A program made the position numbers and the translations under genes. DNA of 62,459 nt, the filler included, from Leucoraja ocellata (taxonomy: Eukaryota): the NCBI GenBank assembly GCA_036785375.1. It is 3 parts of 3 records of this genome, joined end to end, with 100 filler letters (N's around TTAATTAATTAA, not from the genome) between each part and the next. Parts side by side here need not be neighbours in the genome. Positions count along the whole stretch, not along the records: positions 1 to 27,030 come from JAWMAR010000061.1; 2 more parts are not named here. One strand, written 5' to 3'. Below, in pieces: positions 10,801 through 44,217 of the stretch. How positions within the stretch are numbered: position 1 is the stretch's first letter; each line of letters begins with the position of its first letter. The notes below the pieces were generated by a model, which searched no databases, was not told the origin of the DNA, and worked only from the letters and a program-made list of their open reading frames with translations.

Positions 10801-11199
10801 AAACCAGAATCTGCAGTTCCTTCTTAAACAATTTGTATTACGAAGGCAACATTGATTGCAAAATGCTTTCCATAGGGAACTAATTAAAAGTAACTTTGAA
10901 AATCTTTAGGCAGAGGAAAGCTGCCAGATTTAAACACTAAAGTCTGAAGAAGGGTCTCGACCCAAAACGTCACCCATTCCTTCTCTCCAGAGATGCTGCC
11001 TGTCCCGCTGAGTTACTCCAGTGTTTTGTGTCTATCTTATTAGTGAAGCTGTTAGTCGGTGCAGGTCACCAGAAGAATCTTTCTTTGGTTGATGTTACAC
11101 TGGGAATAATAATGTCAGGCTCCATGTGTTGCAGTGTACAAAGGGATTGAAGTTGCAATCTGCAGTGTTAATAATGATGTGCATTTACTTTGAAAGGGA

Positions 11200-11780
11200 C
11201 AGGCCTTAACACTGAGCACTCAGGAGGTACAGTGCGCTCTGCGTAGGATCAATCCACGCAAGGCTGTAGGCCCGGGTGGAGTCCAGGGAAGGGTACTAAA
11301 GGACTGTGCTGTACAGCTGGCGGAGGTATTCACGAGAATCTTTAATCTGTCTCTATCTCTGGCAACGGTCCCCAAGTGCCTGAAAACAGCCACCATAGTG
11401 CCGGTGCCGAAAAAGTCTAAAGTCACCAACCTGAACGACTACCGCCCGGTTGCGCTAACTCCAATCCCAATGAAGTGCTTCGAAAGGCTGGTCCTCTCCC
11501 ATATCAAATCCAGCATCCCTGCCTCACTGGACTCTCATCAATTTGCATACAGGGCAAATAGATCAACAGAGGATGCCATCTCTCTGGCTCTTCACACTGT
11601 CCTGACTCACCTGGACAGACAGGGCATGTACGTGAGGATGCTCTTCATTGACTATAGCTCTGCATTCAATATGGTCATCCCCACAAAGTTCACCACCAAA
11701 CTCCACCAGCTAGGCCTCAGCTCGCCGATATGCGATTGGATCCTGAACTTTCTGACGGAGCGACCGCAGGCAGTGAGACC
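11200..11780 (+). mobile_element. Rex1/Babar LINE reverse transcriptase fragment
   Basis: [31 protein letters not shown]...[14 protein letters not shown]...[11 protein letters not shown]. Confidence 0.9.
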
Positions 11781-11885
11781 TGTCCTAATATTATTATTAT
11801 TATTTCATGTGAAAATGACAAGCGAATCAAGGCCGCGCTTACATTAAGCCGATGATTCTCTTCCAAGCTGTTAACAGGCAACTAA

Positions 11886-12050
11886 AGGGCCTGTCCCACT
11901 TGGACGTATTTTGCGCGTCATCTACGCACCAATTTACGTGTCACGACACATGACACGCACGTCGCGCCGCGCACGTGATGCGCGCGAGGTACGTGGTGAC
12001 CTAGGCAGTGACGCGCGGTCGTGCGCAGCGCCCCAAACGAGACAGGCCCT
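11886..12050. mobile_element. Harbinger-type MITE (CpG-rich)
   Basis: taa|agggcctgtcccact ... gagacaggccct. Confidence 0.7.
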
Positions 12051-13324
12051 TTCATCACCCTCGTGCAACTAGAGAGCGGCCCTGAACTACATCCCACCTC
12101 ACTGATGACTCTCGGACTATCATTGATCGGACTTTGCTGGCTTTACCTTGCACTAAACATTATTCCCCTGTTCAGGCATCGGTACATTGTAAACGGCTCG
12201 ATTGTAATCATGTATTGTCTTTCCGCTGACTGGTTAGCCCGCAACAAAAGCTTTTCACTGTACCTCGGTACACGTGACAATAAACTCAAATGAAAACTGA
12301 AATGAAGAGAATGTGGGGACAATAAAAGAATGGGATTAAAATAAACTGGATAGTTGATGGTAGGTGCGGACTTTATGGGCCGAATGGCTTTGTTTCCACA
12401 CAGCATCTAATCTATAAAAGCTAAGACTCTATAATGAAAAGCACTGTGGTTCCAATGTCCGTGAAGAGAGACGAAAGTGATTTTATTTTAGTCGAATTCA
12501 AGGATGATATATGGGGTTGCAATTTTTCCAAATTAGCTATTAATATTTTTGCAATTTCATCACTCTTAGCAAATCTAATGCTTCAGCAATTGCAACCTCT
12601 ATATTTTTGTAAAATGCAGTTTATGTTTTGCAGTTGGTTCCAAGTAACTATTATTTTTTCCTGTGAGACTGCGGTCCGTAATACCTCATACAGCAGTGCA
12701 AATAGACTGTGTTTAAGTTTGATTCATCCCTGCACGTTGCAACCAGAGATTTAATGTGATCCATGATTTGTTTGGTGATGGTACATTAGAAATAAACATG
12801 TTATTTTTTCCACAGCCGTCAGGAAATCGGTCATTGTCTCTCACTGAAGGCTTGTGTTGCTGGAATTACAAAAGGGTGGAAGGACAGATCCATCATGTTG
12901 CTTATTGCAAAACAAAAATAACATCAGTGGAAACTGAAGTCTACAAAATAATGGTCAGCTCGCTTTGAAACACAACGAGGGTCTTGGTGGCAGCAGAAAT
13001 GCAACAAAGCTGGGAAGGGATGAGAGAAGGAATGAATGGGTGACATTTCAGGTTGAGACCCTTCAGACTGAGAGTCAGGGGAGAGGGAGATTCAGAGGTA
13101 AAGAAGGGTAAGGTGTGAAAATGAGACATCAAAGGGGATGAGGATCAGGGGACATGTTGGCTGAGGGGAAGGTGACAACGAGGCATACAGAGATAACATT
13201 TAATCAGGGGGCATCTTTAATCAGACAGGTCGGAGAATTAGGATGGAGGAGGGGATGGTGACAGAGGGAAAGCAAGGGTTGTTTAAAGTTAGAGAAGTCA
13301 ATGTTGCAGTTGCAACTGCAACTA

Positions 13325-14000
13325 CTGCAGTTGTACAGGGTCTTGGTGAGACCACACCTGGAGTATTGCGTACAGTTTTGGTCTCCAAATCTGAGGAAGG
13401 ACATTATTGCCATAGAGGGAGTACAGAGAAGGTTCACCAGAATGATTCCTGGGATGTCAGGACTGTCTTATGAGGAAAGACTGGATAGACTTGGTTTATA
13501 CTCTCTAGAATTTAGGAGATTGATTCAGATTCAGATTCAATTTTAATTGTCATTGTCAGTGTACAGTACAGAGACAACGAAATGCATTGAGACAACGAAA
13601 TTGAGAGGGGATCTTATAGAAACTTACAAAATTCTTAAGGGGTTGGACAGGCTAGATGCAGGAAGATTGTTCCCGATGTTGGGGAAGTCCAGGACAAGGG
13701 GTCACAGCTTAAGGATAAGGGGGAAATCCTTTGAAACCGAGAGGAGGAGAACTTTTTTCACACAGAGAGTGGTGAATCTCTGGAACTCTCTGCCACAGAG
13801 GGTAGTTGAGGCCACAGTTCATTGGCTATATTTAAGAGGGAATTAGATGTGGCCCTTGTGGCCAAGGGGATCAGGGGGTATGGAGAGAAGGCAGGGATGG
13901 GATACTGAGTTGGATGATCTGCCATGATCACATTGAATGGCGGTGCAGGCTCGAAGGGCCGAATGGCCTACTCCTGCACCTAATTTCTATGTTTCTATGT
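13325..14000 (+). mobile_element. CR1 (HER1-like) LINE 3' fragment
   Basis: [19 protein letters not shown]...LRGDLIETYKILKG, with a (tttctatg)n tail. A small Rex-type tail is inserted at ~13523-13600. Confidence 0.9.
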
Positions 14001-14486
14001 TCATGCCGATGGGGTGCAAGCTGCCCAAGCGAAATATGCCGAGCTGTTCCTCCAATTTGCGCTGGGTCTGTGTAGAGTGGTATAAGATGTTTTATTTCTT
14101 GAGTTAACAGTAGGTGTGGATAAAGAATAGACACTATCTCCTTAGTTTTCTGACTTTAGTGCGCGATGAATTTGGAAACATGCAGCATTTAGGTGAGGGC
14201 AGCGTAGGTTTACTGGGAGGAAAGTTTGCCTGAGTGGTTTAAGACCAGGCATCATCTATGTGGTGCAGGGGAGTGGATGCCTGACGACATTGTCTATTCC
14301 TGCCAGAGTTGTTCTCATTGACTCATCAGTGTGTTCTACATCTCACCCACACGTCCAAACAAACCGGCCAAGCTGTATCCCAAACGCCAACTCGCCCACA
14401 CCAATTAGTCACTCCATTAGTAGATGGCCATCGATGTTCAGGCAGCTTCCTACCCAATCTCCACATCGTGTCTGCTCACAGTTTAG

Positions 14487-15452
14487 TAGAAACATCGAAA
14501 CATCGAATATAGGTGCAGGAGGAGGCCATTCGGCCCTTCGAGCCAGCACCGCCATTCATTGTGATCGTGGCTGATCGTCCCCAATCAATACCAGACTGAT
14601 TCCTGGGATGTCAGGACTATCTTATGAAGAAAGACTGGATAGACTTGGTTTATACTCTCTAGAATTTAGAAGACTGAGGGGGGATCTTATAGAAACTTAC
14701 AAAATTCTTAAGGGGTTGGACAGGCTAGATGCAGGAAGATTGTTCCCGATGTTAGGGAAGTCCATGACAAGGGGTCACAGTTTAAGGATAAGAGGGAAAT
14801 CCTTTAAAACCGAGATGAGAAGAACTTTTTTTTCACACAGCGAGTGGTGAATCTCTGGAACTCTCTGCCACAGAGGGTAGTTGAGGCCAGTTCATTGGCT
14901 ATATTTAAGAGGGAGTTAGATGTGGCCCTTGTGGCTAAGGGGATCAGGGGGTATGGAGAGAAGGCAGGTACGGGATACTGAGTTGGATGATCAGCCATGA
15001 TCATATTGAATGGCGGTGCAGGCTCGAAGGGCCAAATGGCCTACTCCTGCACCTAATTTCTATTTTTTTTTTTCTAATAACCCGTGCCTGCCTTCTCCCC
15101 ATATCCCTTGACTCCACTATCCCCTAGAGCTCTATCTAACTCCCAGTGACTTGGCCTCCACTGCCCTCTGTGGCAGGGAATTCCACAAATTCACAACTCT
15201 CTGGGTGAAAAAGTTTTTTTCTCATCTCAGTTTTAAATGGCCTCCCCTTTATTCTTAGACTGTGTGGCCCCTGGTTCTGGACTCGCCCAACATTGGGAAC
15301 ATTTTTCCTGCATCTAGCTTGTCCAGTCCTTTTATAATTTTATATGTTTCTGTAAGATATGCCCCTCATCCTTCTAAATTCCAGTGAATACAAGCCCAGT
15401 CTTTTCAATCTTTCCTCATATGATAGTCCCGCCATCCCAGGGATTAACCTCG
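14487..15452. mobile_element. CR1 (-) interrupted by a younger CR1 3' fragment (14594-15065, +)
   Basis: ORF 14608-14850 [29 protein letters not shown]. The flanks continue a minus-strand CR1. Confidence 0.85.
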
Positions 15453-15454
15453 AT

Positions 15455-15772
15455 AAGTTTAGTTTAGTTTAGTTTAGAGGTATAGCGCGGAAAGAGGCCC
15501 TTCGACACACAAAGTCCGTGCCGACCAGCGATCCCCGCACATTAACACTATCCTACACACACTAGGGACAATTTACATTTACACCAAGTCAAATAACCTA
15601 CAAACCTGTACGTCTTTAGAGTGTGGGAGGAAACCGAAGATCCCGGGGAAAACCCACGTGGTCACGGGGAGAACGTGCAAACTCCGTACAGACAGCACCC
15701 GTAGTCAGGATCGAACCCGGGTCTCTGGCGCTGTGAGGCAGCAACTCTACCGCTGTGCCATCGTGCCGCCCA
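15455..15772 (-). mobile_element. V-SINE (HE1-like), full length
   Basis: Head gggcggcacgatggcacagcggtagag, B box, V-domain and (ctaaa)n tail. Confidence 0.92.
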
Positions 15773-16389
15773 CAGATAGCAACATCAGCCACTATCCAGC
15801 CAGCAAGAAGCTCGTAAACAGCTAGATTCTTTTATAAAAATGAGATCAGCAGAAGTATTTAAAAACAGCGTTGTTATCCCATCAACCATCTGAATTCTTA
15901 GTCATTCACTGCTTTAGAAATTAGCTCATCAATCTCACAATCTTCAATCTCCCAGTAATATTTTCTCTTCAAAGTGCAAGAAACTTACAACAAAGTGTTG
16001 TGAGTTAAGTTGTGTCGGAAGGAACTGTTTACTCTGAAGACAGACACAAAATGCTGGAGTAACTCAGCGGGACCAGCAGCATCTCTGGAGCGAAGGAATG
16101 GGTGATGTTTTGGGTCAAGTCTGTAGAGTCTTGGCCCAAAACGTCACCCAATCCTTTTCTCCAGAGATGCTGCCTGTCCCGCTGAGTTCCTCCAGCTTTT
16201 TGCGTCTATCTATGGCTAACTATGGTGCACTGTCCCCCGCTGTGGCCTGACCTGCTGAGTTTTTCCAGCGTTTCATGTTTTCAGTTCAGAAGAATGTACC
16301 CTTCGTTTTTCTAAAACATGTCATCCGATGGATTTAATTAAATACAGGAGAGAGGTAAGCAAGGGCAAGATGTGAAAAGGGGACATTAA

Positions 16390-16803
16390 AGATTCAAGAT
16401 TCAAGAGAGTTTATTGTCATGTGTCCCAGATAGGACAATGAAATTCTTGCTTTGCTTCAGCACAACAGAATATAGAAGGCATGAATACAGAACAGATCAG
16501 TGTGTCTATATACCATTGTATAAATATATACACACATGAATAAATAAACAGATAAAGTGCAAATAAACAGATAATGGGTTATTAATGTTCAGAGTTTTGT
16601 CTGAGTTGAGTTTAATAGCCTGATGGCTGTGGGGAAGTAGCTATTCCTGAACCTGGACGTTGCAGTCTTCAGGCTCCTGTACCTTCTTTCTACCTGAAGG
16701 CAGCGGGAGATGAGTGAGTGGCCAGGATGGTGTGGGTCCTTGATGATGCTGCCAGCCTTTTTGAGGCAGCGACTGCGATAGATCCCCTCGATGGAAGGGA
16801 GGG
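16390..16803 (-). mobile_element. Rex1/Babar LINE 3' end
   Basis: PSIEGIYRSRCLKKAGSIIKDPHHPGH...RFRNSYFPTAIRLLN, with a (cttgaat)n tail. Confidence 0.85.
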
Positions 16804-17046
16804 GACGAAACTCAAGGATTATGTAGAATAGATTTATTGTCAGCTGGGGCAAGGTGACAACGAAGGTAAAACTTAATCAGGCTGCTCGGAGAACTAGGGT
16901 GGGGGAGTGTCTGAAGGATCTCAAGCCAAAACGTCACCCATTCCTTCTCTCCGTAGATGCTGCCTGTCCCGCTGAGTTTCTCCAGCATTTTGTCCCTATC
17001 CTCTGGGATTATAGGTGGTGTAACAGATCCAAAATTGGTTGAAATG

Positions 17047-17290
17047 TTCAAGGAGGAACTGCAGATGCTGGAAAATCGAAGTGCTGGAGAAACTCAGCGG
17101 GTGAGGCAGCATCTATGGAGCGAAGGAATAGGTGACGTTTCGGGTCGAGACCAGGAAGCATCTATGGAGCGAAGGAATAGGTGACGTTTCGGGTCGAGAC
17201 CCTTCCGGGTCTCGACCCGAAACGTCGCCTATTCCTTCGCTCCATAGATGCTGCCTCACCCGCTGAGTTTCTCCAGCATTTCTGTCCACA
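17047..17290. repeat. PLE-derived fold-back unit (same internal structure as 8337-8592)
   Basis: Shares the junction gagaccaggaagcatctatgg and the turn gagacccttccgggtctc. Confidence 0.85.
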
Positions 17291-18060
17291 TTCAACATTG
17301 GTCGCGGCTGACATTCAATCAAAACCCCATCGCATATTTCGGGATTCCAAATTGCCTCCATTTTTAATGTCCCGTGAAGTATGTACATCAATTAATATAA
17401 CAATGAAAAATTCCAGGGCTGCCAGTGATTAATGAAAGTAGGCAATGCCTGAAGAATTCATTAGTGCTGAGCTCGGCAAACAGCCTGCAAATGGTTCTCT
17501 GTTGCAGTCTCACAGAATTAACTGCACGGCTAACAGGTCATCTATTCTAACTTTAATCACCAGGTTCCCCCTTAAAGCTATCTAAGCTATTTTCCCTTAA
17601 TTTGCCAATAATTGTGCAAATTCCTGGGAATATTTATAGGTCAGGAAACATCTGTGTAAGTGCTGAGGTTTCTCTTGAAAAACTCACCATCTCATTGCAG
17701 TTGCAGTCTCAATATTTACATAGGCGCTGTCTGTGCGGAGTTTGCACGTTCTCACCGCGACCTGCGTGGGTTTACTCCGGGTGCTCCGGTTTCCTCCCGC
17801 ACTCCAAAGACGTGCAGGTTTGTAGGTCAATTGGCTTTGGTAAAATTGTACAGTGTCCCTAGTGTGTGCTAGTATACGGGGCGATCGCTGGCCGGCACAG
17901 ACTCGATGGGCCGAAGGGTGCGTAGGGTAGAAGATACTTTTATATATTCTGGACAATTCTGATCACAAAACCCCAGACACTAAAAATATAACTATCACTG
18001 TATGTCATGTTGTTACTTGTGGGCGGAGCACCAATGCAAATTCCTTGTATGTGAATACTT

Positions 18061-18535
18061 AACCATATAACCATATAACAATTACAGCACGGAAACAGGC
18101 CATCTCGACCCTTCTAGTCCGTGCCGAACACATAATCTCCCCTAGTCCCATCTACCTGCGCTCAGACCATAACCCTCCATTCCCTTCCCATCCATATAAC
18201 TATCCAATTTATTTTTAAATGATAAAAACGAACCTGCCTCCACCACCTTCACTGGAAGCTCATTCCACACAGCTACCACTCTCTGAGTAAAGAAGTTCCC
18301 CCTCATGTTACCCCTAAACTTCAGTCCCTTAATTCTCAAGTCATGTCCCCTTGTTTGAATCTTCCCTACTCTCAGTGGGATAAACTCTGTCTATCCCTCT
18401 CATCATTTTAAAGACCTCTATCAAGTCCCCCCCTTAACCTTCTGCGCTCCAAAGAATAAAGCCCTAACTTGTTCAACCTTTCTCTGTAACTTAGTTGCTG
18501 AAACCCAGGCAACATTCTAGTAAATCTCCTCTGTA
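18061..18535 (-). mobile_element. CR1 LINE 3' end, second subfamily with (tatatggt)n tail
   Basis: GNFFTQRVVAVWNELP...FKNKLDSYM. Related pieces at 23430-23612 and 23846-23980. Confidence 0.85.
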
Positions 18536-18699
18536 ATCTGGCCAATAAACTTACTTACTTACTTAATTCCTTTAAAACAGTAAAGGTTGGCAAAACAAAT
18601 ATGTCTTTAACTCTGCCTTAAAGGACAGGATATATTAAACCTTTCCTTAATTCGCTGGGAGAGTCAGTGTGGGGCGATTACAATAGCCATTCTTTAGAC

Positions 18700-18996
18700 T
18701 ACTTCAGAGATACAGCATGGAAACAGGCCCTTCGGCCCACTGAGTCTGTACCGACCAGTGGTCCCCGCGTACACTAACACTATCCTACACACAATAGGGG
18801 CAATTTACACTCATACCAAGCCAATTAACCTATCAACCTGCACGTCTTTGGAGTGTGGGAGGAAGCCGAAGATCTCGGAGAAAACCCTAGGCAGGTCACG
18901 GGGAGAACGTGCAAACTCCGTACAGACAGCACCCGTAGTCGGGATCGAACCCGGGTCTCTGGCACTGTGAGGCAGCAACTCTACCGCTGAGCCACT
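18700..18996 (-). mobile_element. V-SINE (HE1-like)
   Basis: tRNA head, V-domain and CR1-like tail. Confidence 0.88.
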
Positions 18997-19939
18997 GAAT
19001 CATCCCATCCCCAACTAGAGAGCAGTCCTAACCTAACACCCACCTCATTGAAGACCCTCGGACTATGTTTAATCGGACTTTACTGGGCTTTACCTTGCAC
19101 TAAACATCATTCATGTCTACCATGTTCTGTTGTGCTGAAGCAAAGCAAGAATTTCATTGTCCTATCTGGGACACATGACAATAAATTCTCTTGAATCTTG
19201 AATCTTGAATCCCTTCACCCTGCATCTATACACTGTGGACGGCTCGATTGTAATCGTGTAAAGTCCTTCCGCTGACTGGATAGCACGCAACAAGAAAGCT
19301 TTTGACTGTACGCGTGACAATAAAGAACAAACTAGCAAAAAACTCAAAACAAATTGGCATCCCTACTTGCAAATGGGATGAGGACAGAAAGATGTTCCCA
19401 TTAAATCTCGATTTGAAAAGTTGGCAGTCAGAGGCATGGACACACATGAGCTGTGGTGATTTTATTGAGCTCCACAGTACATACTGAAATTAACTTTCAA
19501 TATATACTGTACCTTGGCAGAGGTACCTTGGTGAGATTTTGAATGGTTACTCCAAAGACTGATTGTTGCAATTTGCATTGGACTATATGAGTATGTTACA
19601 CTGATGGAGTGGGAAAGTACTTTCATATCTTCATCAATCAGTTTTTTTTGTGTGTGCCGTAGTGCTTTATCAATTTTTCACACATTAACTTGCAGAAGGG
19701 TGAGTTAATCGCCAGTTTTATAGCAATATTTCAACAATAACTAACAATGATACAATAACAGAGGGAGATTCGTCCTCCCTTCTGTTCCAGATATGTTCCA
19801 GGAGCAGAATTAGGCCATTCGGCCCATTGAGTCTACCCCGACATTCAATCATGGCTGATCTATCTCTCCCTCCTAACCCCATTCTCCTGCCTTCTCCCCG
19901 TAACCCCTGACACCCGCACTGATGAAGAGTCACACATGC

Positions 19940-20110
19940 GTCACGGTGGCGCAGCGGTAGAGTTGCTGCCTCACAGCGCCAGAGACCCGGGTTCAATCCC
20001 GACTACGGGTGCTGTCTGTACGGAGTTTGCACGTTCTCCCCGTGACCTGCGTGGGTTTTCTCCGAGATCTTCGGTTTCCTCCCACACTCCAAAGACGTGC
20101 AGGTTTATAG
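19940..20110 (+). mobile_element. V-SINE 5' part
   Basis: ggtggcgcagcggtagag...ggttcaatcccg, followed by the V-domain. Confidence 0.85.
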
Positions 20111-20477
20111 GGTCACCTATTCAAACTCTTTTTTAATACATTTCTTTTTCATAAATTATAAAAAATATATATATTTTTATAAATTATGTTTCTCTGGGGT
20201 ACCTAATGTTTTAGTTGTTTAAATTATGACATCGGATGGAAGCTGCATACCAAATCTCGTTGCACCTCTGTGCAATAATATTATTATTATTATTCTAACT
20301 TTAATCACCATGTATTTCTGCCCATGTTCCCCTTAAGTTATTTTTTCCTTAATTTGCCAATAAATGTACAAATGCCTGGGAATATTTATAGGTCGGGGAA
20401 ACATCTGTGTAGATGCCAAGGTTCCTCTTCAAAAACTCACCATCTCATTGCAGTTGCAGTCTCAATAATTATATTGC

Positions 20478-20732
20478 ATGGGTTCGATCCCGACTACGGG
20501 TGCTGTCTGTACGGAGTTTGCACGTTCTCCCTGTAACCTGCGTGGGTTTTCTACGAGACCTTCAGTTTCCTCCCAGAAGACGTACAGGTTTGTAGGTTTA
20601 ATTGGCTTGGTGTATCTGTACAAAATGTCCCTAGTGTGTGTGTCGGACAGTGTTTGTGTGCGGGGATCGCTGGTCGGCGTGGACTCAGTGGGCTGTTTCC
20701 ACGCTGTATCTCTAAACTAAAACTAAACTAAA
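20478..20732 (+). mobile_element. V-SINE (5' truncated)
   Basis: B box, V-domain and (ctaaa)n tail. Confidence 0.85.
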
Positions 20733-21416
20733 CACATATGAGGAGATAGACTGAAGAAGGGTCTCGACCCAAAACGTCACCCATTCCTTCTCTCCAGAGA
20801 TGCTGCCTGTCCTGCTGAGTTACTCCAACACTTTCCGAAATAAAGCAACACAGAGTGCTGGAGTAACTCAGCGGGACAGGCAGCATCTCTGGAGAGAAGG
20901 AATGGGTGATGTTTTGGGTCAAGACCCAGCATTTTATGTCTACTTTCGATTTAAACCAACATCTGCAGCTCTTTCTTACACATGGTCTGAAGAATAACCT
21001 CACTAAAATGGTGGTATAAATTAGCATAAAATAGTTATTATTGGACCATTGAAGTCAGGTTTATTGAGCTATTCAGATTACAAACCGTTCAGCAAGATAT
21101 TCCTCTGGGTCAGATTGCTGCGATATTAATGAGATAATGTGATAGAGCAGAGGTTAGTCTATAATTAAACAGAATCCAATCTTAAGCAAGACTGAGTAAG
21201 GTGCTAGTTTACAATGGGTGGTGCCAATATCTCTTTTCGAGCAGCCTCAACAAATAACTTAATTAGAGGTGGGCCAGATCATTCTGAGATCATTACCAAA
21301 TCATTCAAGTTAAGCCTTGCTATTAGATCTCTCCAAACTATAGATCGTAAGAATATTTTTAAAACGACACAAAACGCTGGAGTAACTCAGCGGGACAGGC
21401 AGCGTCTCTGGAGAGA

Positions 21417-21462
21417 AGGAATGGGTGACGTTTCGGGTCGAGACCCTTCTTCAGACCAATCC
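21417..21462 (-). ncRNA. Minimal type-I hammerhead ribozyme motif, best-preserved copy
   Basis: Minus strand: ggattGGU CUGAAGA a GGGU cucg ACCC GAAA C GUC|ACC cattcc. Core intact, stem I GGU/ACC, predicted cleavage between 21427 and 21426. Confidence 0.75.
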
Positions 21463-21599
21463 TGAACTCTCGTCGAAGAGAGGAGGAGAACTTCCTCCTT
21501 AGATAGATAGAGTTAGATAGAGGCCAGTGGAATCAAGGGATATATGGGGAGAAGGCAGGCACGGGTTACTGATTGTGGATGATCAGCCATGATCACAAT

Positions 21600-21882
21600 C
21601 AAAGGTGGACAAAAATGCTGGAGAAACTCAGCGGGTGCAGCAGCATCTATGGAGCGAAGGAAATAGGCAACGTTTCGGGACGAAACCCGGAAGGAAATAG
21701 GCAACGTTTCGGGCCAAAAACCGGAAGGAAATAGGCAACGTTTCGGGCCGAAACCCGGAAGGAAATAGGCAACGTTTCGGGCCGAAACCCGGAAGGAAAT
21801 GGGCAACGTTTCGGGCCGAAACCCGGAAGGGTTTCGACCCGAAACGTTACCTATTTCCTTCGCTCCATAGATGCTGCTGCAC
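21600..21882. repeat. PLE fold-back unit with 34-bp tandem array (~5 copies)
   Basis: Unit ggaaggaaataggcaacgtttcgggccgaaaccc. Confidence 0.9.
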
Positions 21883-21894
21883 AATGAATGGCAA

Positions 21895-22250
21895 GTTGTA
21901 CGTTCTCCCCGTGACCTGCGTGGGTTTGCTCCAGGAGCTCCGGTTTCCTCCCACACTCCAAAGACGTGCAGGTTTGTAGGTTAATTGGCTTGGTGTAAAT
22001 GTAAAATTGTCCCTAGTGTGTGTAGGATAGTATTAATGTGCGGGGGGGGGGGGGGGGGGGGAATCACTGGTCCGAAGGGCCGAAGGGCCTGTTTCCATTC
22101 TGTATCTCTAAACTAAATGAAATTAAACAGGTTAAATGACTTGGTATAAATGTAAATTGTCCCTAGTGTGTGTGTGTGTGTGTGTGGGATAGTTTTCACC
22201 GGTCAGTGTGGACTCGGGGGGCCGAAGGGCCTGTTTCCGCGCTGTATCTC
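21895..22250 (+). mobile_element. Two V-SINE 3' parts
   Basis: V-domain and tails, with poly-G and (GT)n inside. Confidence 0.8.
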
Positions 22251-22935
22251 TGAACATAGAAAACATAGAAACATAGAAAATAATACTGCAGGAGTAGGCC
22301 ATTCGGCCCTTCCACTGAGTTCCCCAGGGGTACAGGATTAATCTGCAGCGTTCCACACTCCCCGAGGGCAATCGCAGTGACACAGGGTTGGTGGCAGAGT
22401 GCTCGTGAAACATTTCCCACTAACTATTACACCAATACTACCTTCGGAGAATGAGGGCGTGGGATGAGACAGGTTACTTGTAGGAAATAAAGCACATGGG
22501 ACTAATTGAGGGGCAATTTGGGCTTCCTCTCTGTTCAGTATGCTGAATGCATAGGCACTGTTTGATACTTTTATGCCTAATTAGGTGTACAATTTTTTTG
22601 CTGTTATCAATGCAGGGACCACAGTCCCTGACCAGTGAATGCGTCCAATTAGCATTGAATTTCGAATGCTCAGAATGATTGCTTTCAACATGATGTCCCT
22701 TTATAGTTATATCTCTCTTGCCTGTTATTTGCCTGTTACAACGTGTCATTTCATTCAAAAATTGTGAATAAGTAAAAGGCCCACAATTTGTCAACGGATA
22801 TCCATGTAAAATTATCACTTGTTGTTCTTCTCACTGGGTCTAATCTTTCCCTATCCACCCCCGAGATAAAGATTCGGAAAATGTTCTTCTTCTTGAGTGT
22901 GGCGTGCACAGCCTAAAGTTGTAGGACAACTTGTT

Positions 22936-23400
22936 TAAGAAGGATGCAGGAAAATCGAAGGTAGACAAAAATGCTGGAGAAACTCAGCGGGTGCAGCAGC
23001 TTCTATGGAGCGAAGGAAATAGGCAACGTTTCGGGACGAAACCCTTCCGGGTTTCGACCCAAAACGTTGCCTATTTCCTTCAGGGTTTCGACCCGAAACG
23101 TTGCCTATTTCCTTCAGGGTTTCGACCCGAAACGTTGCCTATTTCCTTCTTGGTTTCGACCCGAAACGTTGCCTATTTCCTTCCGGGTTTCGACCCGAAA
23201 CGTTGCCTATTTCCTTCTTGGTTTCGACCCGAAACGTTGCCTATTTCCTTCTTGGTTTCGACCCGAAACGTTGCCTATTTCCTTCAGGGTTTCGACCCGA
23301 AACGTTGCCTATTTCCTTCAGGGTTTCGACCCGAAACGTCGCCTATTTCCTTCGCTCCAGAGATGCTGCTGCACCCGCTGAGTTTCCCCAGCTTTTTTGT
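22936..23400. repeat. PLE fold-back unit with nine 34-bp tandem repeats
   Basis: Units c(a/c/t)(g/t)ggtttcgacccgaaacgttgcctatttcctt at a 34-bp period from 23047 to ~23352. TSD gta(g/a)gacaacttgtt at 22921-22935 and 23401-23415. Confidence 0.92.
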
Positions 23401-35965: not shown

Positions 35966-36453
35966 TTAGACCATTCAGCCATCGAGTCTACTCAGCTATT
36001 TAATTTATTTTTCTCCCCCAACACCATTCTCCTGCCTTCTCCCTGTAACTTAACAACCTTCCTAATCAAGAACATGTGAATCTCTACCTTAAAATAATCA
36101 ATGTCAGCCTCCATAGCTTTCTGTGGCAATGATTTCCACAGATTCGCCACCCTCTGACTAAAGTAATAACTCTTCATCTCCATTTTGAAGGTACGACTTT
36201 TATTCTGAGGCTGTGCCCTCTGGTTGTAGATGCAGAAAACATCCTTTCTACTTTATCTCGGCCTTTCATTATCTGATTAATGAGATTCCACCTTATCCTT
36301 TTAAATGCCAGCAAGTACAAGCTCAGAGCCTTCAAATGCTCTTCATACTTTAACCCAATTATACTCGGGATCATCGTGATAAACCTCTTCTGTACCCTCT
36401 CCAATGCCAACACATCCTTCCTCAAATATGGACCCCCAAACTGCTCACAATAC

Positions 36454-37213
36454 TATACAATAATACTTTATTAGCCAAGTATGTTTTGCAACATACGAGG
36501 AATTTCATTTCCCAATCAGTCATACAAATAAAAAGTAACAGAACACACAAAATACATTTTAACATAAACATCCACCACAGTGACTCCTCCACATTCCTCA
36601 CTGTGATGGAAGGCGAAAAAAAGTTCAATCTCTTCTCTTCTTTGTTCTCCTACGGTCAGGGGCCTCGAGCCTTCCGTTGACAGGACGATCTTGAATCCCG
36701 TATTTGGTGGAGCTTGGGGCCTCCACGACGGGGCGATCAAGCTCTCGCGTCGGGGGCGATGTCAGCTCCCCGCGCAGAGCAAACGGACCCCGGGTCGGGG
36801 CTGGTCAAACCTTCTGCGTCGTTGGAGCTGCCGACATCAACGGCCTCTCCCGAGACTGCGAGCTCTTGATGATAAAGTCCGCAGGCCGCGATTGGAGTGA
36901 TCCCAGCCAAGGGATCGGCTCCGACGGTAAGTCAACGCCCTGCGGTGGGGCTCAAAGTCAGTCGCGAAAAGGCCTCCAGCTCCACAATGTTAGGCCGCAG
37001 AGCGACCAGAGATATGATCCAGAAAACAATCGCATATCTCCGGCAAGGTAAGAGATTGAAAAACAAGTTTCCCCCGACCCTTTCCCCCTCCCCCCACAAA
37101 AAACAAGCCAGTGAACATTTACACACTTTTAAAACACACTAAAGATAACAAAAAAAGAAGAAAAAACAGACAGACTGTTGACGGGGCTGCCAATTGTGCG
37201 GCACCCTTGGTGG
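36454..37213 (-). mobile_element. GC-rich ~750-bp non-autonomous retroposon inserted in a CR1
   Basis: Minus 3' end ...catacttggctaataaagtat followed by a simple-repeat tail. Homologous to 53940-54675. Confidence 0.75.
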
Positions 37214-37851
37214 CGTTCCAGATATGCCAGATGTGGCCTCACCAGTGCCTGATAAAGCTGTAGAATTGCATCCTTGCTTTTATTTTCTAGTCCTCTCAAA
37301 AGTTACAGAGTAGATTTAGGAGGATGTTGTGAGAACTGGTGCAGAGAAGAATTACGAGGATGTTGTCAGGACTAGAGGGCCTGAGCTCTAGGGAGAGGTT
37401 CGGGAGGCTAGGACTCTATCCCTTGGAGCGCAGGAAGATGAGGGGTAATCTTATGGAGGTGCATAAAATCATGAGAGGAATAGATAGGGTAGACTTGCAG
37501 AGTCTCTCGCCCGGAGTTGGGGAATCAAGAGCCAGAGGACATACAGTGCATTCAGAAAGTATTCAGACCCCTTCACATTTTGTTACGTTACAGCCTTATT
37601 CTAAAATGGATTAAATTATTTTTTTTTATCATCAAGCTACACACAACACCCCATAATAAAAAAGCAAAAACAGGTTTAGAAATTTTTGCAAAGAAATAAC
37701 TGAAATATCACATGTATTCAGACCCTTTACTCAGTACTTTGTTGAGGCACCTTTGGCAGCGATTACAGCCTCAAGTCTTCTTGGGTATGACACTACAAAC
37801 TTGGCACACCTGTATTTGGGTAATTTCTCCCATTCTTCTCTGCAGAGACTC

Positions 37852-38403
37852 TCAAGCTCCTGCTGCTGAAAAACATCCCCACAGCATGATGCTGCCACCA
37901 CCATGCATCACCGTAGGCATGGTATTCACCAGGTGATGAGTGGTTCCTGGTTTCCTCCAGACGTGACACATGGCATTCAGGCCAAAGAGTTCAATCTTGG
38001 TTTCATCAGACCAGAGAATCTTGTTTCTCATGACTTTTGGCAAACTTCAAGCGGGCTGTCGTGTGCCTTTTACTGAGGAGTGGCTGCATGGTCACTCTAC
38101 CATAAAGGCCTGATTTGGTGGAGTGCTGCAGATATAGTTGTCCTTCTGGAATGTTCTCCCATCTCCACAGAGGAACTCTGGAGCTCTGTCAGTGACCATC
38201 AGGTTCTTGGTCACCTCCCTGACCAAGGCCCTTCTCCCCCAATTGCTCAGTTTGGCCGGGCGGCCAGCTCTATGAAGAGTCCTGGTGGTTCCAAAGTTCT
38301 TCCATTTTAGAATGACCGAGGCCACTGTTTTATACCCTTCCCCAGATTGGTTTCTCGACGCAATCCTGTCTTGGAGGTCTACTGCCAATTCCTTCGTCTT
38401 CAC
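37852..38403 (-). pseudogene. Tc1 transposase remnant (internally deleted and frameshifted)
   Basis: MKTKEL...SGEGYK...GRPAKLS...LVREVTKN, and [14 protein letters not shown]...[19 protein letters not shown]. Confidence 0.92.
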
Positions 38404-38709
38404 GGCTTGGTTTTTGCTCTGACATGCACTGTCAACTGTGGGACCTTATATAGACAGGTGTGAGTATTTCCAAATTATGTCCAATCAAATGAATTTACCA
38501 CTGGTGGTCTCCAATCAAGTTGTAGAAACATCTCAAGGATAATCAATGGAAACAGGATGGACCTAAGCTCAATTTTGTGTGTCATAGCAAAGGGTCTGAA
38601 TACATGTAAATGTGATATTTCAGTTATTTCTTTTTAATAACTTTGCAAAAATTTCTAAACATCTGTTATCCCTTCTTTAGTCTTGGTTATCGTGTGTACA
38701 TTGATGTCA

Positions 38710-39805
38710 AGTCAGATTCAGATTCAGATTCAGATTCAGATTCAACTTTAATTGTCATTGTCAGTGTACAGTACAAAGACAACGAAATGCAGTCAAGTCA
38801 AGATTGTTTATTGTCATGTGTTCCAGATAGGCCAATGAAATTCTTGCTTGCTGAAGCACAACAGAATATCGTAAGCAAAAATACAGAACAATTCAGTTCA
38901 ATATACACATAAATAAGCAGGTAAAGTGCAATAGGCTGTTACAGTTCAGAGTCTGTTTGTTGGTGAGTTTAATAGCCTGATGGCTGATGGGAAGAAGTTG
39001 TTCCTGTACCTGGAGGTAACAGATTTCAGGCTCCTGTACCTTCTGCCCGATGGTAGCGGATAGATGAGTGTGTGGCCTGGATGGTGTGGGTCCTTGATGA
39101 TGTTGACTGCCTTTTTGAGGCAGCGACTGTGATAGATCCATTCGATGGAGGGGAGGTCAGAGCTGGACTGGGCAGTGGTCACAACGTTCTGCATCCTTTT
39201 CCACTCCTGGACGCTCAAATTGCCGAATCAAGCCACAATGCAACAGGTCAGCATGCTCTCTACTGTGCACTTGTCGAAGTTTGAGAGAGTTTGAGAGAGT
39301 CCTCTTTGGCATACCGACTCTGCGTAGTCTTCTCAGAAAGTAGATGCGCCGATGTGCTTTCTTTATAATTGCAACAGTGTGCTGGGACCAGGAAAGATCT
39401 TTGGAAATGTGCACGCCCAGGAATATGAAGTGCTTGACCCTTTCCACCAATATAAATGGAATTGTGGGTCCCTAACCTACCCCTTCCAAAGTCCACAATC
39501 AGTTCCTTGGTTTTGCTGGTGTTGAGGGCCAGGTTATAGTGCTGGCACCATTTGGTCAATCGATCAATCTCACTTCTATACTCTGACTCATCCCCATCAG
39601 TGATTCGTCCCATAACAGTGGTGTTGTCAGCGAACGTGATGATGGAGTTCGCAATATGTCCGGCTACGCCATCATGAGTATAGAGTGAGTACAGCAGGGG
39701 GCTGAGCACGCAGCCTTGAGGTGCTCCCGTGCTGATTGTTATCGAGGATGACGCATTTCCACCAATACGGACAGACTGTGGTCTGTGGATGAGGAAGTCG
39801 AGGAT
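38710..39805 (-). mobile_element. Rex1/Babar LINE (RT C-terminal half plus 3' end)
   Basis: [19 protein letters not shown]...[11 protein letters not shown]...[13 protein letters not shown], and KDPHHPGHTL..PLPSGRRYRS. Confidence 0.92.
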
Positions 39806-40319
39806 ATAAAAAAATGAATTTAATCAATTTTAAAATGAGGTTGTAACGTAACAAAATGTGGAAAAAGTGAAGGGGTCTGAATACTTTTTGAATGCACTGT
39901 AGGTTTAAGGTGAGGGAGGAAAGATTTAAAATAGGAATCTGAGCGGTAACTTTTTCCACACAAAGGTGTATGGAACGAGCTACCACAGGAGGTGGTTCAG
40001 GCAGATACAATTGGTACGTTTAAGAAACATTTACACTGGTACATGGATAGGATAGGTTTAGAGGGATATGGGCCAAATGCAGGCAGGTGGGACGAGTATA
40101 GATGGGGCATTGGCAGATGTGGGCAAGTTGGGCCAAACGGCCTGTTTCCACGCTGTAGGACTATAAATAAATACCAGAATCGCATTTGCCTTCCTTACCA
40201 CCAACTCAACTTGCAAACTAACCAAAGATAGACACAAAAAGCTGGAGGAACTCAGACAGTGTCTCTGGAGAAAAGGAATAGGTGACGTATTCCCAAGTCC
40301 CTTTCCACTCCGCAATTAG

Positions 40320-41225
40320 AAAGTAATCTACACCTTTATTCCTTCTACCAAAGGATTTATTCCATTTGCCATTTCTTTGCCCATAATATCAACCTATCCA
40401 AGTCCTTCTGCAGCCTCAACACTAAAAGACAGCTCCTCTACCTATTTTTTTTATTATTTATTTTTTTTATTTTACATCGGTTGGAAGCTGCATACTAAAT
40501 CTGGTTGCACTAATGTGCAATGACAATAAAATATATTATTATTATTATTATTTTACATCATCTGCAAAGCCATCAATTCCGTCACCCAGATAATTAACAT
40601 ATAATGTGAAAAGTAGCAGACCCAACTCAACCCCGTGCAACACCACTTGCCACCAGCAGCCAACCAGAAAAGTTTCCCTTTATTCCCACTCTTTGCCTTC
40701 TGCCAGTCAGCCCATCGTCTATCCATCATCTATTCATGCTAGTACCTTGCCTCTAATACCATGGGTTACTATCTTGTTTAGCAGCCTCACATATGGCACT
40801 TTGTCAAAGGCCTTCTGAAAATTCACGTAAACAACATCAACTGGCTCTCCTTTGTCTATCTTGCATGTTGCCGCCTCAAAAAAACTCCTACAAATTTGTC
40901 AGGCAAGGTCTCTCCTTAACAAAACCATGCCAATTTTATCGTGTGCTTCCAAGTACCCCAAAACCTCATCCTTAATAATGGGCTTAAATTTTACCAACCA
41001 CCGAAGTCAGACAAACTGGGCTATCAGTTCCTTTTTTTGCCTTGCTCCCTTGTACAACAGTGGAGTTACATTTGCAATGTTCCAGTCCGCTGGACCCATT
41101 CTTGATTCTAGTTATTCTTGAAAGATCGCAACTAATGCCTCCACAATCTCCACTACTGCCTTTTTCAGAACCCTGGAGTGTAGTCCATCTGGTCCAGGGT
41201 GACTTAAACCACCTTCAGAACTTTC
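40320..41225 (-). mobile_element. Old CR1 RT fragment
   Basis: PGPDGLHSRVLK..VEIVEAL..IFQ on the minus strand, plus FQKAFDKVPY-like sequence. Confidence 0.75.
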
Positions 41226-42130
41226 GCTGTTCCGAGCGCCTTCTCCTAATTTTAACATTCTGCATATTGTGTACAATTGCAAAAATTCCTGAACCATAAA
41301 AATGAACACGTAATAAATAAAAGTTCAATTAAAATCAGCAAATAAAAAAACTGAAAATGTAAATTTTGATAAACTACAGACTGAGGAATCCTAAGTTATT
41401 ATTGACTTTACGAAGCTTAGAAATATTAATTAGACCTGAAATAAAAAAAATAAAATGCTGGAAATATTCGAATGGTTGGACCACAACAGTGGAGAGGTAA
41501 ATAAAGTTACCATTTCAGGTGAAATCTGAAACATCAAGTGTTTTTCTCTCTGTTGATGCTGATTGTCCATTTTCTGATTTGATTTCTGTCTTTCAGCATT
41601 GGCAGCTTTTTACCCTTGCTGATTGAATTTTACTCTAAATCTATATTTTGGAATGCAATAAATTGTGTTCTTACATAGTATAAGAACCAACAATGTTTTT
41701 AAACATCTGTAAGCACTTGCAAAGAATGTTTAATATTTTGCCAAGAATGTGCAGAATAATTAAACAATAAAAACACTTGTATTTATTAAAACTAGAAATG
41801 AAACCTAAAATAAATTTTTAAAAAGCATTTATATTGCTTCCACCCTTCAAACAATATAAAATCCCTGAACTTAAGCTGACAGCCAGTTAACCTAGTAACC
41901 CCACTCAATTCCATTCTTTGTTGGTTAGTAATGTTACTGAAAGCTCTTTTCATTATATGTTAAAAGCTTGCAGACTGTCAACCCAAACTTGCACTTAGCT
42001 TGTAGCCTCCTTTAGAGTCGACAACACATGCTGTGTTTTATGTTGCAGATTTTTGCCCCGAAAGAAAATGACTACCTGTCTACTACTATCAGTAAATGCA
42101 TCGTATTATTTAGCATACTCAGTAATACAG

Positions 42131-42147
42131 AGTGCCACCTGCTGGTA
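42131..42147 (-). promoter_or_regulatory. Consensus CTCF binding motif
   Basis: Minus strand CCAGCAGGTGGCAC is a full match to CCASYAGRKGGCRS, in unique AT-rich DNA. Confidence 0.55.
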
Positions 42148-43129
42148 TAGAAACTGAATTTGAAAAAATAAATTCAGTCTTGTTCTGAAGAATGCTAGTA
42201 TTGTTCATTGCGCATTCATGGATTATTCAAAAATACAAACCATTTTTTGTATCAGGGAAAGAAAAGGAGTGAGAAATTCTGCTCTATTCTGCATATCTCT
42301 ACAATTTTAATTGAAAACATGGAAAGTTCAATTACAGAAAAGAAAGACTCCCTCACGAAAGAGAGTGAACAAATAAGCCAAGCTTCATAATATGAAATAA
42401 TAATTTAGTTGAACGTTTTGTGGCTAATGTTAGATAGGTGTAGATAGATTTAACTGCCCCCACTTCCTCTTTGCCCGTCTCTCAATTAATTTAACTTTTA
42501 GGTAACAGTCTAATTCTCTTTAAACGACATGAGCAGCTTCTACCCCTCCATGCGGTAATATTTCAGATTCTTCCATTTGGAAAAAAAATCTCCTTAATTC
42601 ATAACTTGAGAGGATTTACTTGACATAAATTTGATTACATATTATTGTAAAAGAACATTTAAAAAAACAATTAGTCTTTCTTTTTAAAAAAAAACGTAGA
42701 TCTTGGGATTTGTAAGTGCTTTGGTAAGTTGTTTTTGGTAAATGTTTGATCATTAGTACTAAATGTGAACAACAAATGTTTTGAATAGCTTTCCTCCCCC
42801 AACTGCTTAATATGTATGTCAAAAACATCTTATTCTAGTTTGTTAATTCTATAGATATTAAGCAATAGAAAGTCATAACAGAATGTTAAATACTGAGTGT
42901 AGAAGATTTCAGAAGTGTATATATAGATATCTAGTTTAAAAAAAATGTTCTCATCTTTTAAATAAACAAAACATTGCTGTTGGTTTAGATTGCAAGTGCA
43001 GCCTGCAATTTGGTTTTTACGCTTAGTAAAGAATCTTCACCTAAAACCTCAATATTCTGGTCTTGTTATAGTATACTAAGATTTACATCATCAAAGTTTG
43101 TTTTAAAAATGATTTTTTTCACAACCATT

Positions 43130-43135
43130 TTTATT
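43130..43135 (-). terminator. Candidate polyadenylation signal AATAAA for the minus-strand gene
   Basis: ~95 nt downstream of the TAA at 43230-43232. An alternative lies at 41782-41787. Confidence 0.3.
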
Positions 43136-43229
43136 TGGTAATTTAGAAGTTTTTCCATAGTTATACAATTCAATTGTGAAAGCAGAAAATTATGATCTAT
43201 TTACCAACCAGATCTGTACACTGATTTCT

Positions 43230-43314
43230 TTAGTGCCTCCTCTGTCCAAAAAGCCTCGCGTTTGGACCACCCAAGTAACTCTTTGTCTCTTCCAGTTGCT
43301 GCTTGAAAACATTC
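43230..43314 (-). CDS. Putative terminal coding exon of an unidentified host gene: (R)NVFKQQLEETKSYLGGPNARLFGQRRH*
   Basis: Acceptor gtttcttttcag|G, phase 2. GC-richer coding-like island in AT-rich unique DNA. Phase matches exon 51265-51315. Confidence 0.6.
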
Positions 43315-44023: not shown

Positions 44024-44217
44024 AAGGACATTCATAACTTGGTTTACCATTCTTAATTACATTAATATTTTGTTTTCGTCTAAAATCTTCATTCTTAAAG
44101 AAAATATTGTTTTAATGTTTTATGTCTATTGAGAATGTTATTGTTCTCCTCATTATTTTTGTTACTTCCGTTCATTGTAGAATTAATCCCAATGAAAGAA
44201 TGAGGGAATGAGGTAAC

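What the first reader, a model, noticed from the sequence alone, without database searches (positions are those of the whole stretch)
21417..21462. Hammerhead ribozyme motif built into the dominant Penelope-derived repeat, with more than ten intact or decayed copies in 62 kb
Seen in sequence: the most common short repeat reads, on the PLE sense strand, (g/a)gt-CTGAAGA-a-[GGGT ctcg ACCC or GGGT ttcg GCCC]-GAAA-C-GTC/GTT-(a/g)cc. This gives the full hammerhead core (CUGANGA, GAAA, NUH) with one extra A after A9, a tetraloop-capped stem II, stem I pairing GGU/ACC and an almost absent stem III. Intact cores are at 21417-21462(-), 7012-7050(+) and ~27964-28000(-). Near-intact or decayed copies are at ~196, 1725, 3552, 9420, 9825, 10238, 10942, 20749, 25128, 35715, 43830, 48945 and 59424. 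The motif sits ~100 nt after the stop of the GIY-YIG ORF (1-278, 3494-4421, 27915-28716). The two subfamilies differ in stem II and in the cleavage triplet yet keep the pairing. Established: Penelope-like elements are known to carry minimal type-I hammerheads that likely act as dimers (Cervera & De la Pena 2014). Inference: in this chondrichthyan the ribozyme unit has become a very high-copy genomic repeat that could cut intronic or UTR transcripts.
Basis: partly seen in the sequence, partly recalled or inferred. Interest (0 to 1): 0.8.

Follow-up and report, generated by a model that had tools for sequence, protein, structure and literature searches.

The report
Skate Penelope-element minimal hammerhead repeat
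The hammerhead-ribozyme motif is really there, about 20 times in 62 kb, as the tail end of a Penelope-type jumping gene; this arrangement has been known since 2014, and the scattered copies decay like ordinary repeat DNA, so they likely do not cut host RNA.

Summary
23 copies carry the 5' core (68 fragments, 7% of the window), and 4 are fully intact (199+, 7016+, 21454-, 27995-). The motif lies 97-115 nt after the stop of a Neptune-type Penelope-like (PLE) GIY-YIG ORF whose best relatives are skate proteins. It fits the published minimal hammerhead of metazoan PLEs. The same architecture in 27 other-animal repeat clusters shows compensatory helix I pairs.

Corrections: helix I is only 2 bp in the parent element (the GGU/ACC pair uses a flank base), and stem II is three fixed G-C pairs plus a variable fourth.

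Inserted copies show no extra core conservation (7.5% vs 7.4% changes), and catalytic G12 is lost in 5 of 12. RNA reads show no ends at the cut site.

A new detail: 17 of 23 copies start within 5 nt before the core and none at the cut site. They are likely run-off cDNAs of an uncut element RNA.

Host-RNA cutting is unsupported. This scan reported the same kind of motif before, in three windows of other (shark) genomes. Verdict: new member of a known kind.

The parts
21365..21456 (-). Solo copy (subfamily A1) holding the reported hammerhead plus about 60 nt of element tail; unique DNA on both sides; no target-site duplication seen
21425..21456 (-). Minimal hammerhead motif: helix I arm 21456-21455, core 21454-21448, extra A 21447, stem II 21446-21435, GAAA 21434-21431, palindromic ACGU 21431-21428, C17 21427, predicted cut 21427/21426. 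Flank bases extend helix I to 7 of 8 pairs by chance (about 2% of window flanks would)
7013..7106 (+). Solo copy (subfamily B), intact motif (C3 7016, U17 7043), 13-bp target-site duplication that overlaps the first 5 bases of the copy
27915..28716 (-). 5'-truncated PLE: broken linker and GIY-YIG ORF (stop 28095-28093), pyrimidine-rich 3' UTR, intact motif (C3 27995), tail; 14-bp target-site duplication
3494..4421 (-). 5'-truncated PLE: CX4CX2C linker and frameshifted GIY-YIG ORF (stop 3702-3700), 3' UTR, motif with a 1-nt insertion (C3 3584); 14-bp target-site duplication
1..281 (+). ORF end (stop 96-98), 3' UTR and intact motif (C3 199, subfamily A2 stem II with GUU triplet), followed by an inverted tail at 290-400
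43768..44026 (-). Short 5'-truncated PLE: ORF end, 3' UTR, decayed motif (C3 43861)
24898..25158 (.). Composite insertion: inverted halves joined at the start of stem II, 34-bp tandem units, and a core-bearing piece that ends at U16.1/C17; one 17-bp target-site duplication brackets it all
22940..23404 (.). Head-to-head composite with a run of 34-bp tandem units that start at stem II and lack CUGAAGA; 11-bp target-site duplication
21597..21882 (.). Head-to-head composite with 34-bp tandem units, no 5' core
35645..35844 (.). Head-to-head pair pivoting on the small palindrome just before the core (C3 35747- and 35749+), both decayed
8338..8740 (.). Head-to-head composites joined at stem II (8473/8475) and at the core (8635-); a near-identical unit lies at 17050-17293
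48891..48992 (-). Copy with C3 48979 and broken ACGU palindrome, preceded by about 10 nt of inverted tail; 12-bp target-site duplication
1724..62352 (.). Further decayed core-bearing copies, C3 at 1725+, 5778-, 9420+, 9855-, 10239+, 10944+, 13066-, 16120+, 16911+, 20751+, 59426+, 62350-

Best explanation
The motif is the minimal hammerhead in the terminal repeat of a Neptune-type Penelope-like retrotransposon, likely of a skate, and most genomic copies are 100-130 nt element ends that were likely reverse-transcribed from uncut element RNA and are likely inert where they sit. Shown: sequence, position after the GIY-YIG stop, target-site duplications, a sharp 5' edge just before the core, neutral decay. 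Inferred: in the active element two tandem copies would pair through the ACGU palindrome and cut after GUC/GUU slowly, helped by the element's protein. Inferred (about 45%): the element's transcript starts 3-5 nt before the core. Reverse transcription primed at the tail 95-130 nt downstream would then run off that 5' end and give the short copies. Priming from both target strands and template jumps at stem II would give the head-to-head and 34-bp tandem forms. The motif is abundant because it lies between the RNA start and the priming site, not because cutting is selected in the copies.
For: PLE link: the translated ORF end finds 37 relatives at E<=1e-10, best Leucoraja and Rhinoraja proteins at 73-82% identity, then rays 61-66% and sharks 57-59%. 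Relatives run RT-linker-EN, and 129 of 133 fetched proteins with the YIGET motif have the CX2-5CX2C linker, the Neptune/Nematis mark (PMC8557442 passages). Ribozyme class: positions left out of my search pattern behave as hammerhead positions in 127 metagenome matches, with H17 C 104, U 21, A 1, G 0, 1 cut off. In 27 cluster representatives helix I pairs 1-3 form in 100/96/74% against 55/45/49% shuffled. On a 29-row alignment, 47 cells change on both sides and 0 of 500 shuffles reach the observed pairing. 24 of 122 loci have a PLE protein match within the 300-400 nt flank. Retro-insertion: 6 of 26 units have 11-17 bp target-site duplications; random pairs reached 8 bp apart from one 36 bp outlier in 400. 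Sharp edge: 17 of 23 core-bearing copies lose similarity within 5 nt before C3; 4 certainly and 2 probably carry the UTR. None of 68 fragments starts at profile columns 25-43, which hold the cut site. In runs of related genomes, depth over motif plus tail is about 15-30 times the UTR depth in contigs and over 100 times in RNA run X22, and loose ends lose agreement just past the core. Inertness: non-CpG changes are 9/120 in the core and 40/539 in the tail (Fisher p=1); G12 is A in 5 of 12 A1 copies, two of them among the least diverged. Literature: a lizard PLE primes internally, does not need hammerhead cleavage to insert, and its hammerhead cuts only with protein (PMC11167929).
Against: No cleavage was measured. 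A transcript start at the edge is not shown: the RNA runs list no place where many molecules begin, and in D. virilis Penelope the start lies about 120 nt further upstream with an intron between (PMC2377424, PMC4209133). In three other-animal families only 2 of 27, 2 of 20 and 5 of 14 copies have their edge within 5 nt of the core, so the sharp edge is not general. The depth step is inflated because several subfamilies share the tail but not the UTR, contig depth is no copy number, and the runs may not be the window's species (best word share 0.68). The four subfamily-B copies show 0/40 core changes against 12/207 in the tail (p=0.22), too few to exclude some constraint. Two pieces end at or within 2 nt of the cut site (25128, 8606). 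No full-length skate ORF was found to show that the tail is the ORF start.
Confidence: 0.8

Rival explanations
1. Dispersed intact copies cut host pre-mRNA: two copies in one long transcript pair through ACGU, and the cut acts as a terminator or decay signal.
For: Intact motifs occur about once per 15 kb, two per strand here and 6.5-6.8 kb apart. The region is abundant in RNA on both strands. The 21454 copy has a flank-extended helix I, and its hammerhead fold is 3.2 kcal/mol above the minimum, close to the median 3.25 of 22 other-animal families.
Against: There is no excess core conservation and G12 decays. No ends pile up at the cut site, and both orientations are about equal in X22 (1680 vs 1779 at 3547-3567) although ORF bins are 3:1 skewed (low power, mixed copies). 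Parent helix I is 2 bp. Published minimal hammerheads are inactive as monomers and weak as dimers (PMC4209133); 8 of 9 Xenopus dimers did not cut (bioRxiv 2026.07.22.740005). No host gene was found in the window.
Confidence: 0.06
2. The skate motif is a degenerate relic: helix I has shrunk to 2 bp, the ribozyme no longer cuts even in active elements, and the sequence is kept as a promoter or protein-binding signal.
For: Helix I has 2 pairs, against 3 or more in 87 of 127 other-animal matches. Subfamily B has U17 and a U.G first pair. Young A1 copies share G12A, which may mark a ribozyme-dead master. None of the 6 tested pieces folds as a hammerhead at minimum energy, z -0.8 to +0.7.
Against: 30 of 127 other-animal matches also have 2 pairs and 21 have U17. 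D. virilis Penelope has a 2-bp helix I (PMC4209133). All subfamilies keep every core base while their tails and UTRs differ, and a zebra-shark read-through protein ends in a peptide compatible with the same core (P0010).
Confidence: 0.2
3. The sharp 5' edge comes from something other than a transcript start: a 3' splice site (pyrimidine tract plus CAG right before the core), or self-priming at the TCAG-N-CTGA palindrome on an antisense template.
For: UTR-bearing copies are 80-91% pyrimidine upstream and most end in CAG one base before the arm. The D. virilis intron ends at helix I (PMC4209133). Head-to-head pairs pivot on the palindrome, which PMC3846280 reads as antisense self-priming.
Against: Solo copies share no upstream exon sequence, and two have their target-site duplication directly against the core (7013, 25158). 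No canonical splice joint ending there is among the 15 of 98 joints shown.
Confidence: 0.3
4. The short copies are a non-LTR retrozyme or SINE-like element that multiplies through self-cleaved circular RNA.
For: Tandem arrays exist (34-bp and 66-bp units), also in related genomes (joints 3575 to 3543). Retrozymes derive from PLE repeats and occur in one chondrichthyan genome (bioRxiv 2026.07.22.740005).
Against: The tandem units start at stem II or G12 and lack CUGAAGA, so none has a complete motif. No copy is circularly permuted at, or begins at, the cut site.
Confidence: 0.05

Closest known systems
Minimal type-I hammerheads (min-HHR) in pLTRs of metazoan Penelope-like elements (Cervera and De la Pena 2014, PMC4209133)
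   Same: Full core, extra base between 9 and 10.1, G10.1-C11.1 pair, palindromic 15.2-16.2 with no helix III loop, position in the repeat after the GIY-YIG ORF, mostly single truncated copies, opposite-strand pairs. Reported in Xena, Poseidon and Neptune elements of fishes.
   Different: Helix I is 2 bp (4-5 bp in the Schistosoma families described) and helix II is 3-4 bp (7-8). Density is far higher: about one intact motif per 15 kb here, against about 4,000 and 9,000 per genome in coelacanth and Xenopus. No cartilaginous fish is named in the text parts read or in the 2 supplements searched (one file not searched).
Poseidon PAc of Anolis carolinensis (Frangieh et al. 2024, PMC11167929)
   Same: Hammerhead near the element end, tail of 30-40 nt defining two 3' ends, AT-rich targets, uncut RNA as template.
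   Different: Poseidon clade, without the Cys linker. A sharp 5' edge just before the core is not described in the two parts read.
D. virilis Penelope (PMC2377424, PMC4209133)
   Same: 2-bp helix I bounded by an upstream acceptor-like sequence; internal promoter in the pLTR; inverted and partial-tandem copies.
   Different: Its start site lies about 120 nt upstream with a 75-nt intron; helix III has a 2-nt insertion; about 130 motifs.
Animal non-LTR retrozymes (PMC7229834; bioRxiv 10.64898/2026.07.22.740005)
   Same: PLE-derived short repeats with type-I hammerheads; one chondrichthyan genome has them.
   Different: They are head-to-tail units each with a complete motif. The tandem units here lack the 5' core, and the common form is a solo or head-to-head copy.

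Membership tests
PLE min-HHR | Core C3UGANGA9 and G12AAA15.1, U16.1, H17 | tested here: met
   Exact in 6 copies, all other criteria met in 4
PLE min-HHR | Unpaired base between 9 and 10.1; G10.1-C11.1 pair | tested here: met
PLE min-HHR | Palindromic, loop-less helix III | tested here: met
   ACGU in the majority of copies
PLE min-HHR | Helix I closing the motif (type I) | tested here: inconclusive
   2 bp in parent context; the first two pairs covary across families of the same architecture; shorter than the 4-5 bp described, equal to D. virilis
PLE min-HHR | Located in the pLTR downstream of a PLE ORF | tested here: met
   97-115 nt after the stop in 3 copies, same layout in a fourth
PLE min-HHR | Self-cleavage as a dimer or with protein | not testable with these tools
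   No assay; RNA reads show no ends at the site (low power)
Canonical hammerhead (Rfam models) | Score at gathering threshold; stable helix III and loop 1-loop 2 contact | tested here: not met
   No Rfam hammerhead hit
Neptune-type EN+ PLE | C-terminal GIY-YIG endonuclease after a PLE RT | tested here: met
   49% identity to the C-terminus of a 938-aa RT-EN protein, E 8e-33; relatives run RT-EN. Pfam GIY-YIG alone is weak, E 0.19. The RT itself is not in the window
Neptune-type EN+ PLE | CX2-5CX2C linker before the endonuclease | tested here: met
   CX4CX2C in 3889-4383(-)
Neptune-type EN+ PLE | Placement in the Neptune rather than Nematis clade by RT phylogeny | not tested
   No tree built; the 2026 preprint found only Neptune and Poseidon in vertebrates
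EN+ PLE insertions | Target-site duplications, inverted truncated copies, optional 30-40 nt tail | tested here: met
Non-LTR retrozyme | At least two consecutive tandem units each with a complete hammerhead | tested here: not met
   Tandem units lack CUGAAGA

The most novel reading that the evidence does not exclude
Skate genomes carry on the order of 100,000 intact minimal hammerheads, spread as short run-off copies from a transcript start inside helix I. At that density two intact copies often share one pre-mRNA, dimerise through ACGU with the element's protein as chaperone, and cut host transcripts, making this a genome-wide, germline-switchable RNA cleavage system.
Probability: 0.06. Interest if true: 0.8.

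Novelty: new member of a known kind. Interest (0 to 1): 0.27.

Why it matters
The kind is known, so the catch is correct but not surprising. Two side points have some value. First, if this window is typical, the motif would be far more abundant than in the vertebrate genomes counted in 2014. That makes skates a good statistical test of an open question, whether PLE hammerheads are under selection in or against host transcripts (intact against G12A copies, sense against antisense in introns). Second, the sharp 5' edge and the recurrent junctions at stem II record where PLE reverse transcription stops and jumps, which is not yet worked out in vivo.

Tried and rejected
Rfam: 0 hits at gathering score in the window; only an unrelated E 9.9 hit in 21300-21560.

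Whole genome: none held, so there are no genome-wide counts; all density figures come from one window.

A first fuzzy scan timed out and was redone by Hamming scan and nhmmer.

Folding energy does not discriminate: skate gaps are 1.2-6.1 kcal/mol, other families 0-9.

The run search listed no RNA holder on record; two unindexed raw RNA runs were laid instead. The difference table showed 40 of 193 rows, so per-base core conservation across reads could not be read.

Host gene: 148 ORFs (mostly from the 172 non-repeat ORFs of 48 aa or more) gave only RT and Tc1-type transposase hits; short exons may be missed.

A full-length skate PLE N-terminus was not found.

Viral contigs: 1 match, not followed.

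Literature: one search returned only unrelated shark papers. One search (Penelope, skate, transposable element, Chondrichthyes) listed 3 papers, not read. Searches listed no paper whose title or abstract start concerns solo PLE ends beginning at the hammerhead. Lunse et al. on dimer cleavage is not held and is known to me only through a review passage (PMC6765202).

Rejected: chance motif; assembly artefact (target-site duplications, and the same joints in independent runs); covariation between the window's subfamilies (changes are one-sided; the two cut-site contexts are each one CpG transition from a third form also present).

Full report
1. Observation. On the minus strand C3 is 21454, the extra A 21447, stem II 21446-21435, G12 21434 and C17 21427. 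The core pattern matches 14 times with up to one mismatch and never in 100 shuffles. A profile search finds 68 fragments at E<0.01, against no such hit in 5 shuffled windows; they cover 7.1% of the window. 23 copies keep the 5' side of the core. Four pass a strict test: 199+, 7016+, 21454-, 27995-. Rfam detects none, as expected for a motif without helix III.

2. The element. Four copies continue upstream through a pyrimidine-rich UTR into the end of an ORF; the stop lies 97-115 nt before C3 in the three measured. Read with X at one stop, this ORF end finds 37 relatives. The best are skate proteins at 73-82% identity, then rays and sharks, so the host is inferred to be a skate. [quoted passage not shown] The linker marks Neptune and Nematis elements (PMC8557442, passages), and only Neptune and Poseidon were found in vertebrates (bioRxiv 2026.07.22.740005, parts 1-3 of 5). 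No tree was built. Six of 26 units have target-site duplications of 11-17 bp, so solos, long copies and composites each arrived by retro-insertion.

3. Is it a hammerhead? By sequence it fits the minimal hammerhead of metazoan PLEs: full core, extra base after A9, G10.1-C11.1, palindromic 15.2-16.2 (PMC4209133, parts 1-2 of 4). In 127 matches position 17 is never G. In 27 cluster representatives the first three helix I pairs form in 100, 96 and 74% of cases against 55, 45 and 49% after shuffling. On an alignment of 23 of these representatives (4 near-duplicate clusters left out) and 6 window copies, 47 cells change on both sides and no shuffle of 500 reaches the observed pairing or covariation score; the rows are related, so this is not a probability. 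The architecture is therefore a real, covarying class.

Within it the skate version is at the weak end. Helix I has 2 pairs in parent context, the third position being A.C; 30 of 127 other matches also have 2. Stem II is three G-C pairs with a freely varying fourth, both here and in the other families. The subfamily differences are one-sided. Folding energies neither support nor exclude activity.

4. Are inserted copies under selection? In 12 subfamily-A1 copies non-CpG changes are 9/120 in the core and 40/539 in the tail (p=1). G12, which lies in a CpG, is A in 5 of 12, including two of the least diverged copies. Four B copies show 0/40 against 12/207 (p=0.22). In two raw RNA runs laid on 3400-4000 no place has many molecules beginning or ending. 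In X22 both orientations are about equally deep over the motif while ORF bins are skewed 3:1. This is weak evidence: libraries are fragmented, reads mix intact and dead copies, 6% and 1% of the runs were read, and the species may differ. No host exon was found in the window, so 'intronic' is unverified.

5. Why so many short copies? 17 of 23 core-bearing copies lose similarity to the parent within 5 nt before C3. A second preferred edge lies at the start of stem II, where head-to-head pairs and 34-bp tandem units join. None of 68 fragments starts at the cut site; two pieces end at or near it, both at composite junctions. In related genomes depth falls steeply at the same edge, loose ends lose agreement just past the core, and the same inversion and tandem joints recur (with the caveats above). 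In three other-animal families the edges are much more spread.

A lizard PLE primes reverse transcription internally at the tail, extends both target strands, uses uncut RNA, and has a hammerhead that cuts only with protein (PMC11167929, parts 1-2 of 4). I infer that the skate element's RNA begins 3-5 nt before the core. The bases there match the initiator consensus (recalled, from no call), and PLE promoters are internal to the pLTR (PMC2377424, parts 1-3 of 4). Priming at the tail of the 5' repeat would then run off the RNA end and give 100-130 nt copies; priming at the 3' repeat would give the longer truncated copies. This would also cap helix I at 2-3 bp. I put this at about 45%; a splice acceptor or antisense self-priming (PMC3846280, passages) remains possible.

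6. Comparison. Same kind as the 2014 minimal hammerheads, which were already reported as widespread single truncated copies and opposite-strand pairs, inactive as monomers and weak as dimers. Dimer cleavage by Lunse et al. I saw only through a review passage (PMC6765202). It is not a retrozyme, since the tandem units lack the 5' core. I found no paper on this motif in skates (searches; supplements of PMC4209133 with one file unsearched; supplements of the bioRxiv preprint, which covers one chondrichthyan, not seen), but the library lacks most subscription journals. Three earlier notes of this scan describe the same kind in other (shark) genomes; they are unchecked and are not counted as support. 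Extrapolating one intact motif per 15 kb to a genome of about 2-2.5 Gb (size recalled) gives on the order of 100,000 intact copies. That compares with about 4,000 and 9,000 motifs in coelacanth and Xenopus and up to 120,000 canonical ones in axolotl (section title in PMC7229834). This rests on one window.

7. Verdict. Real motif, known class, new host lineage; dispersed copies likely inert. Interest 0.27.

Noticed in passing
window 1725, 8634, 10944, 16120, 16121, 16911, 20751, 20927: G12 to A is common in subfamily A1 (5 of 12 aligned copies; 8 A among 52 matches of all subfamilies), including young copies. This may mark a ribozyme-dead master that still transposed, or plain CpG decay.
   Followed up: partly
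window 8473/8475, 17205/17207, 21824/21826, 23047/23049, 24985/24987: The same head-to-head junction at the start of stem II recurs in two subfamilies, with one extra base; it is also seen as a joint in reads and contigs of related genomes.
   Followed up: partly
window 21691-21824, 23049-23318, 24987-25055: 34-bp tandem arrays from stem II to about 12 nt past the cut site; two lie inside a single target-site duplication, so they may form during reverse transcription.
   Followed up: partly
window 9106-9419: 66-bp tandem of a further subfamily starting exactly at G12.
   Followed up: no
window 25128-25157 and 8606-8637: Two core-bearing pieces end at or within 2 nt of the predicted cut site at composite junctions; these may be chance or copies of a cleaved 5' product.
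   Followed up: partly
window 21426-21407 (-) and equivalents: A second pyrimidine tract plus AG lies directly before a conserved ATG about 20 nt after the cut site; possible acceptor or ORF start, with a different frame open in subfamilies A1 and B.
   Followed up: partly
window 25590-25690: Copy whose 5' core appears to be deleted between two short identical words.
   Followed up: no
P0010 residues 509-517: A zebra-shark read-through protein ends in a peptide compatible with the same hammerhead core, suggesting conservation across elasmobranch PLEs.
   Followed up: partly
L001 401-427: One viral contig has the same core and stem II layout between two ORF-like regions; helix I not evident.
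   Followed up: no
L002-L122: At least 27 clusters of the same minimal-hammerhead architecture in metagenome contigs, 24 loci with PLE protein matches in the flank.
   Followed up: yes
window 38009-38445 (-); 11194-11844, 39263-39823, 44925-45506: Tc1/Sleeping-Beauty-like transposase remnant and LINE reverse-transcriptase fragments.
   Followed up: no
window 56010-57030; 58373-58712: 483-bp 96% inverted pair of LINE ends 55 nt apart next to an assembly gap; 48-bp tandem array.
   Followed up: no
window 34767-35142: Old PLE remnant with a small inverted ORF piece joined directly to a tail fragment that lacks the hammerhead.
   Followed up: no
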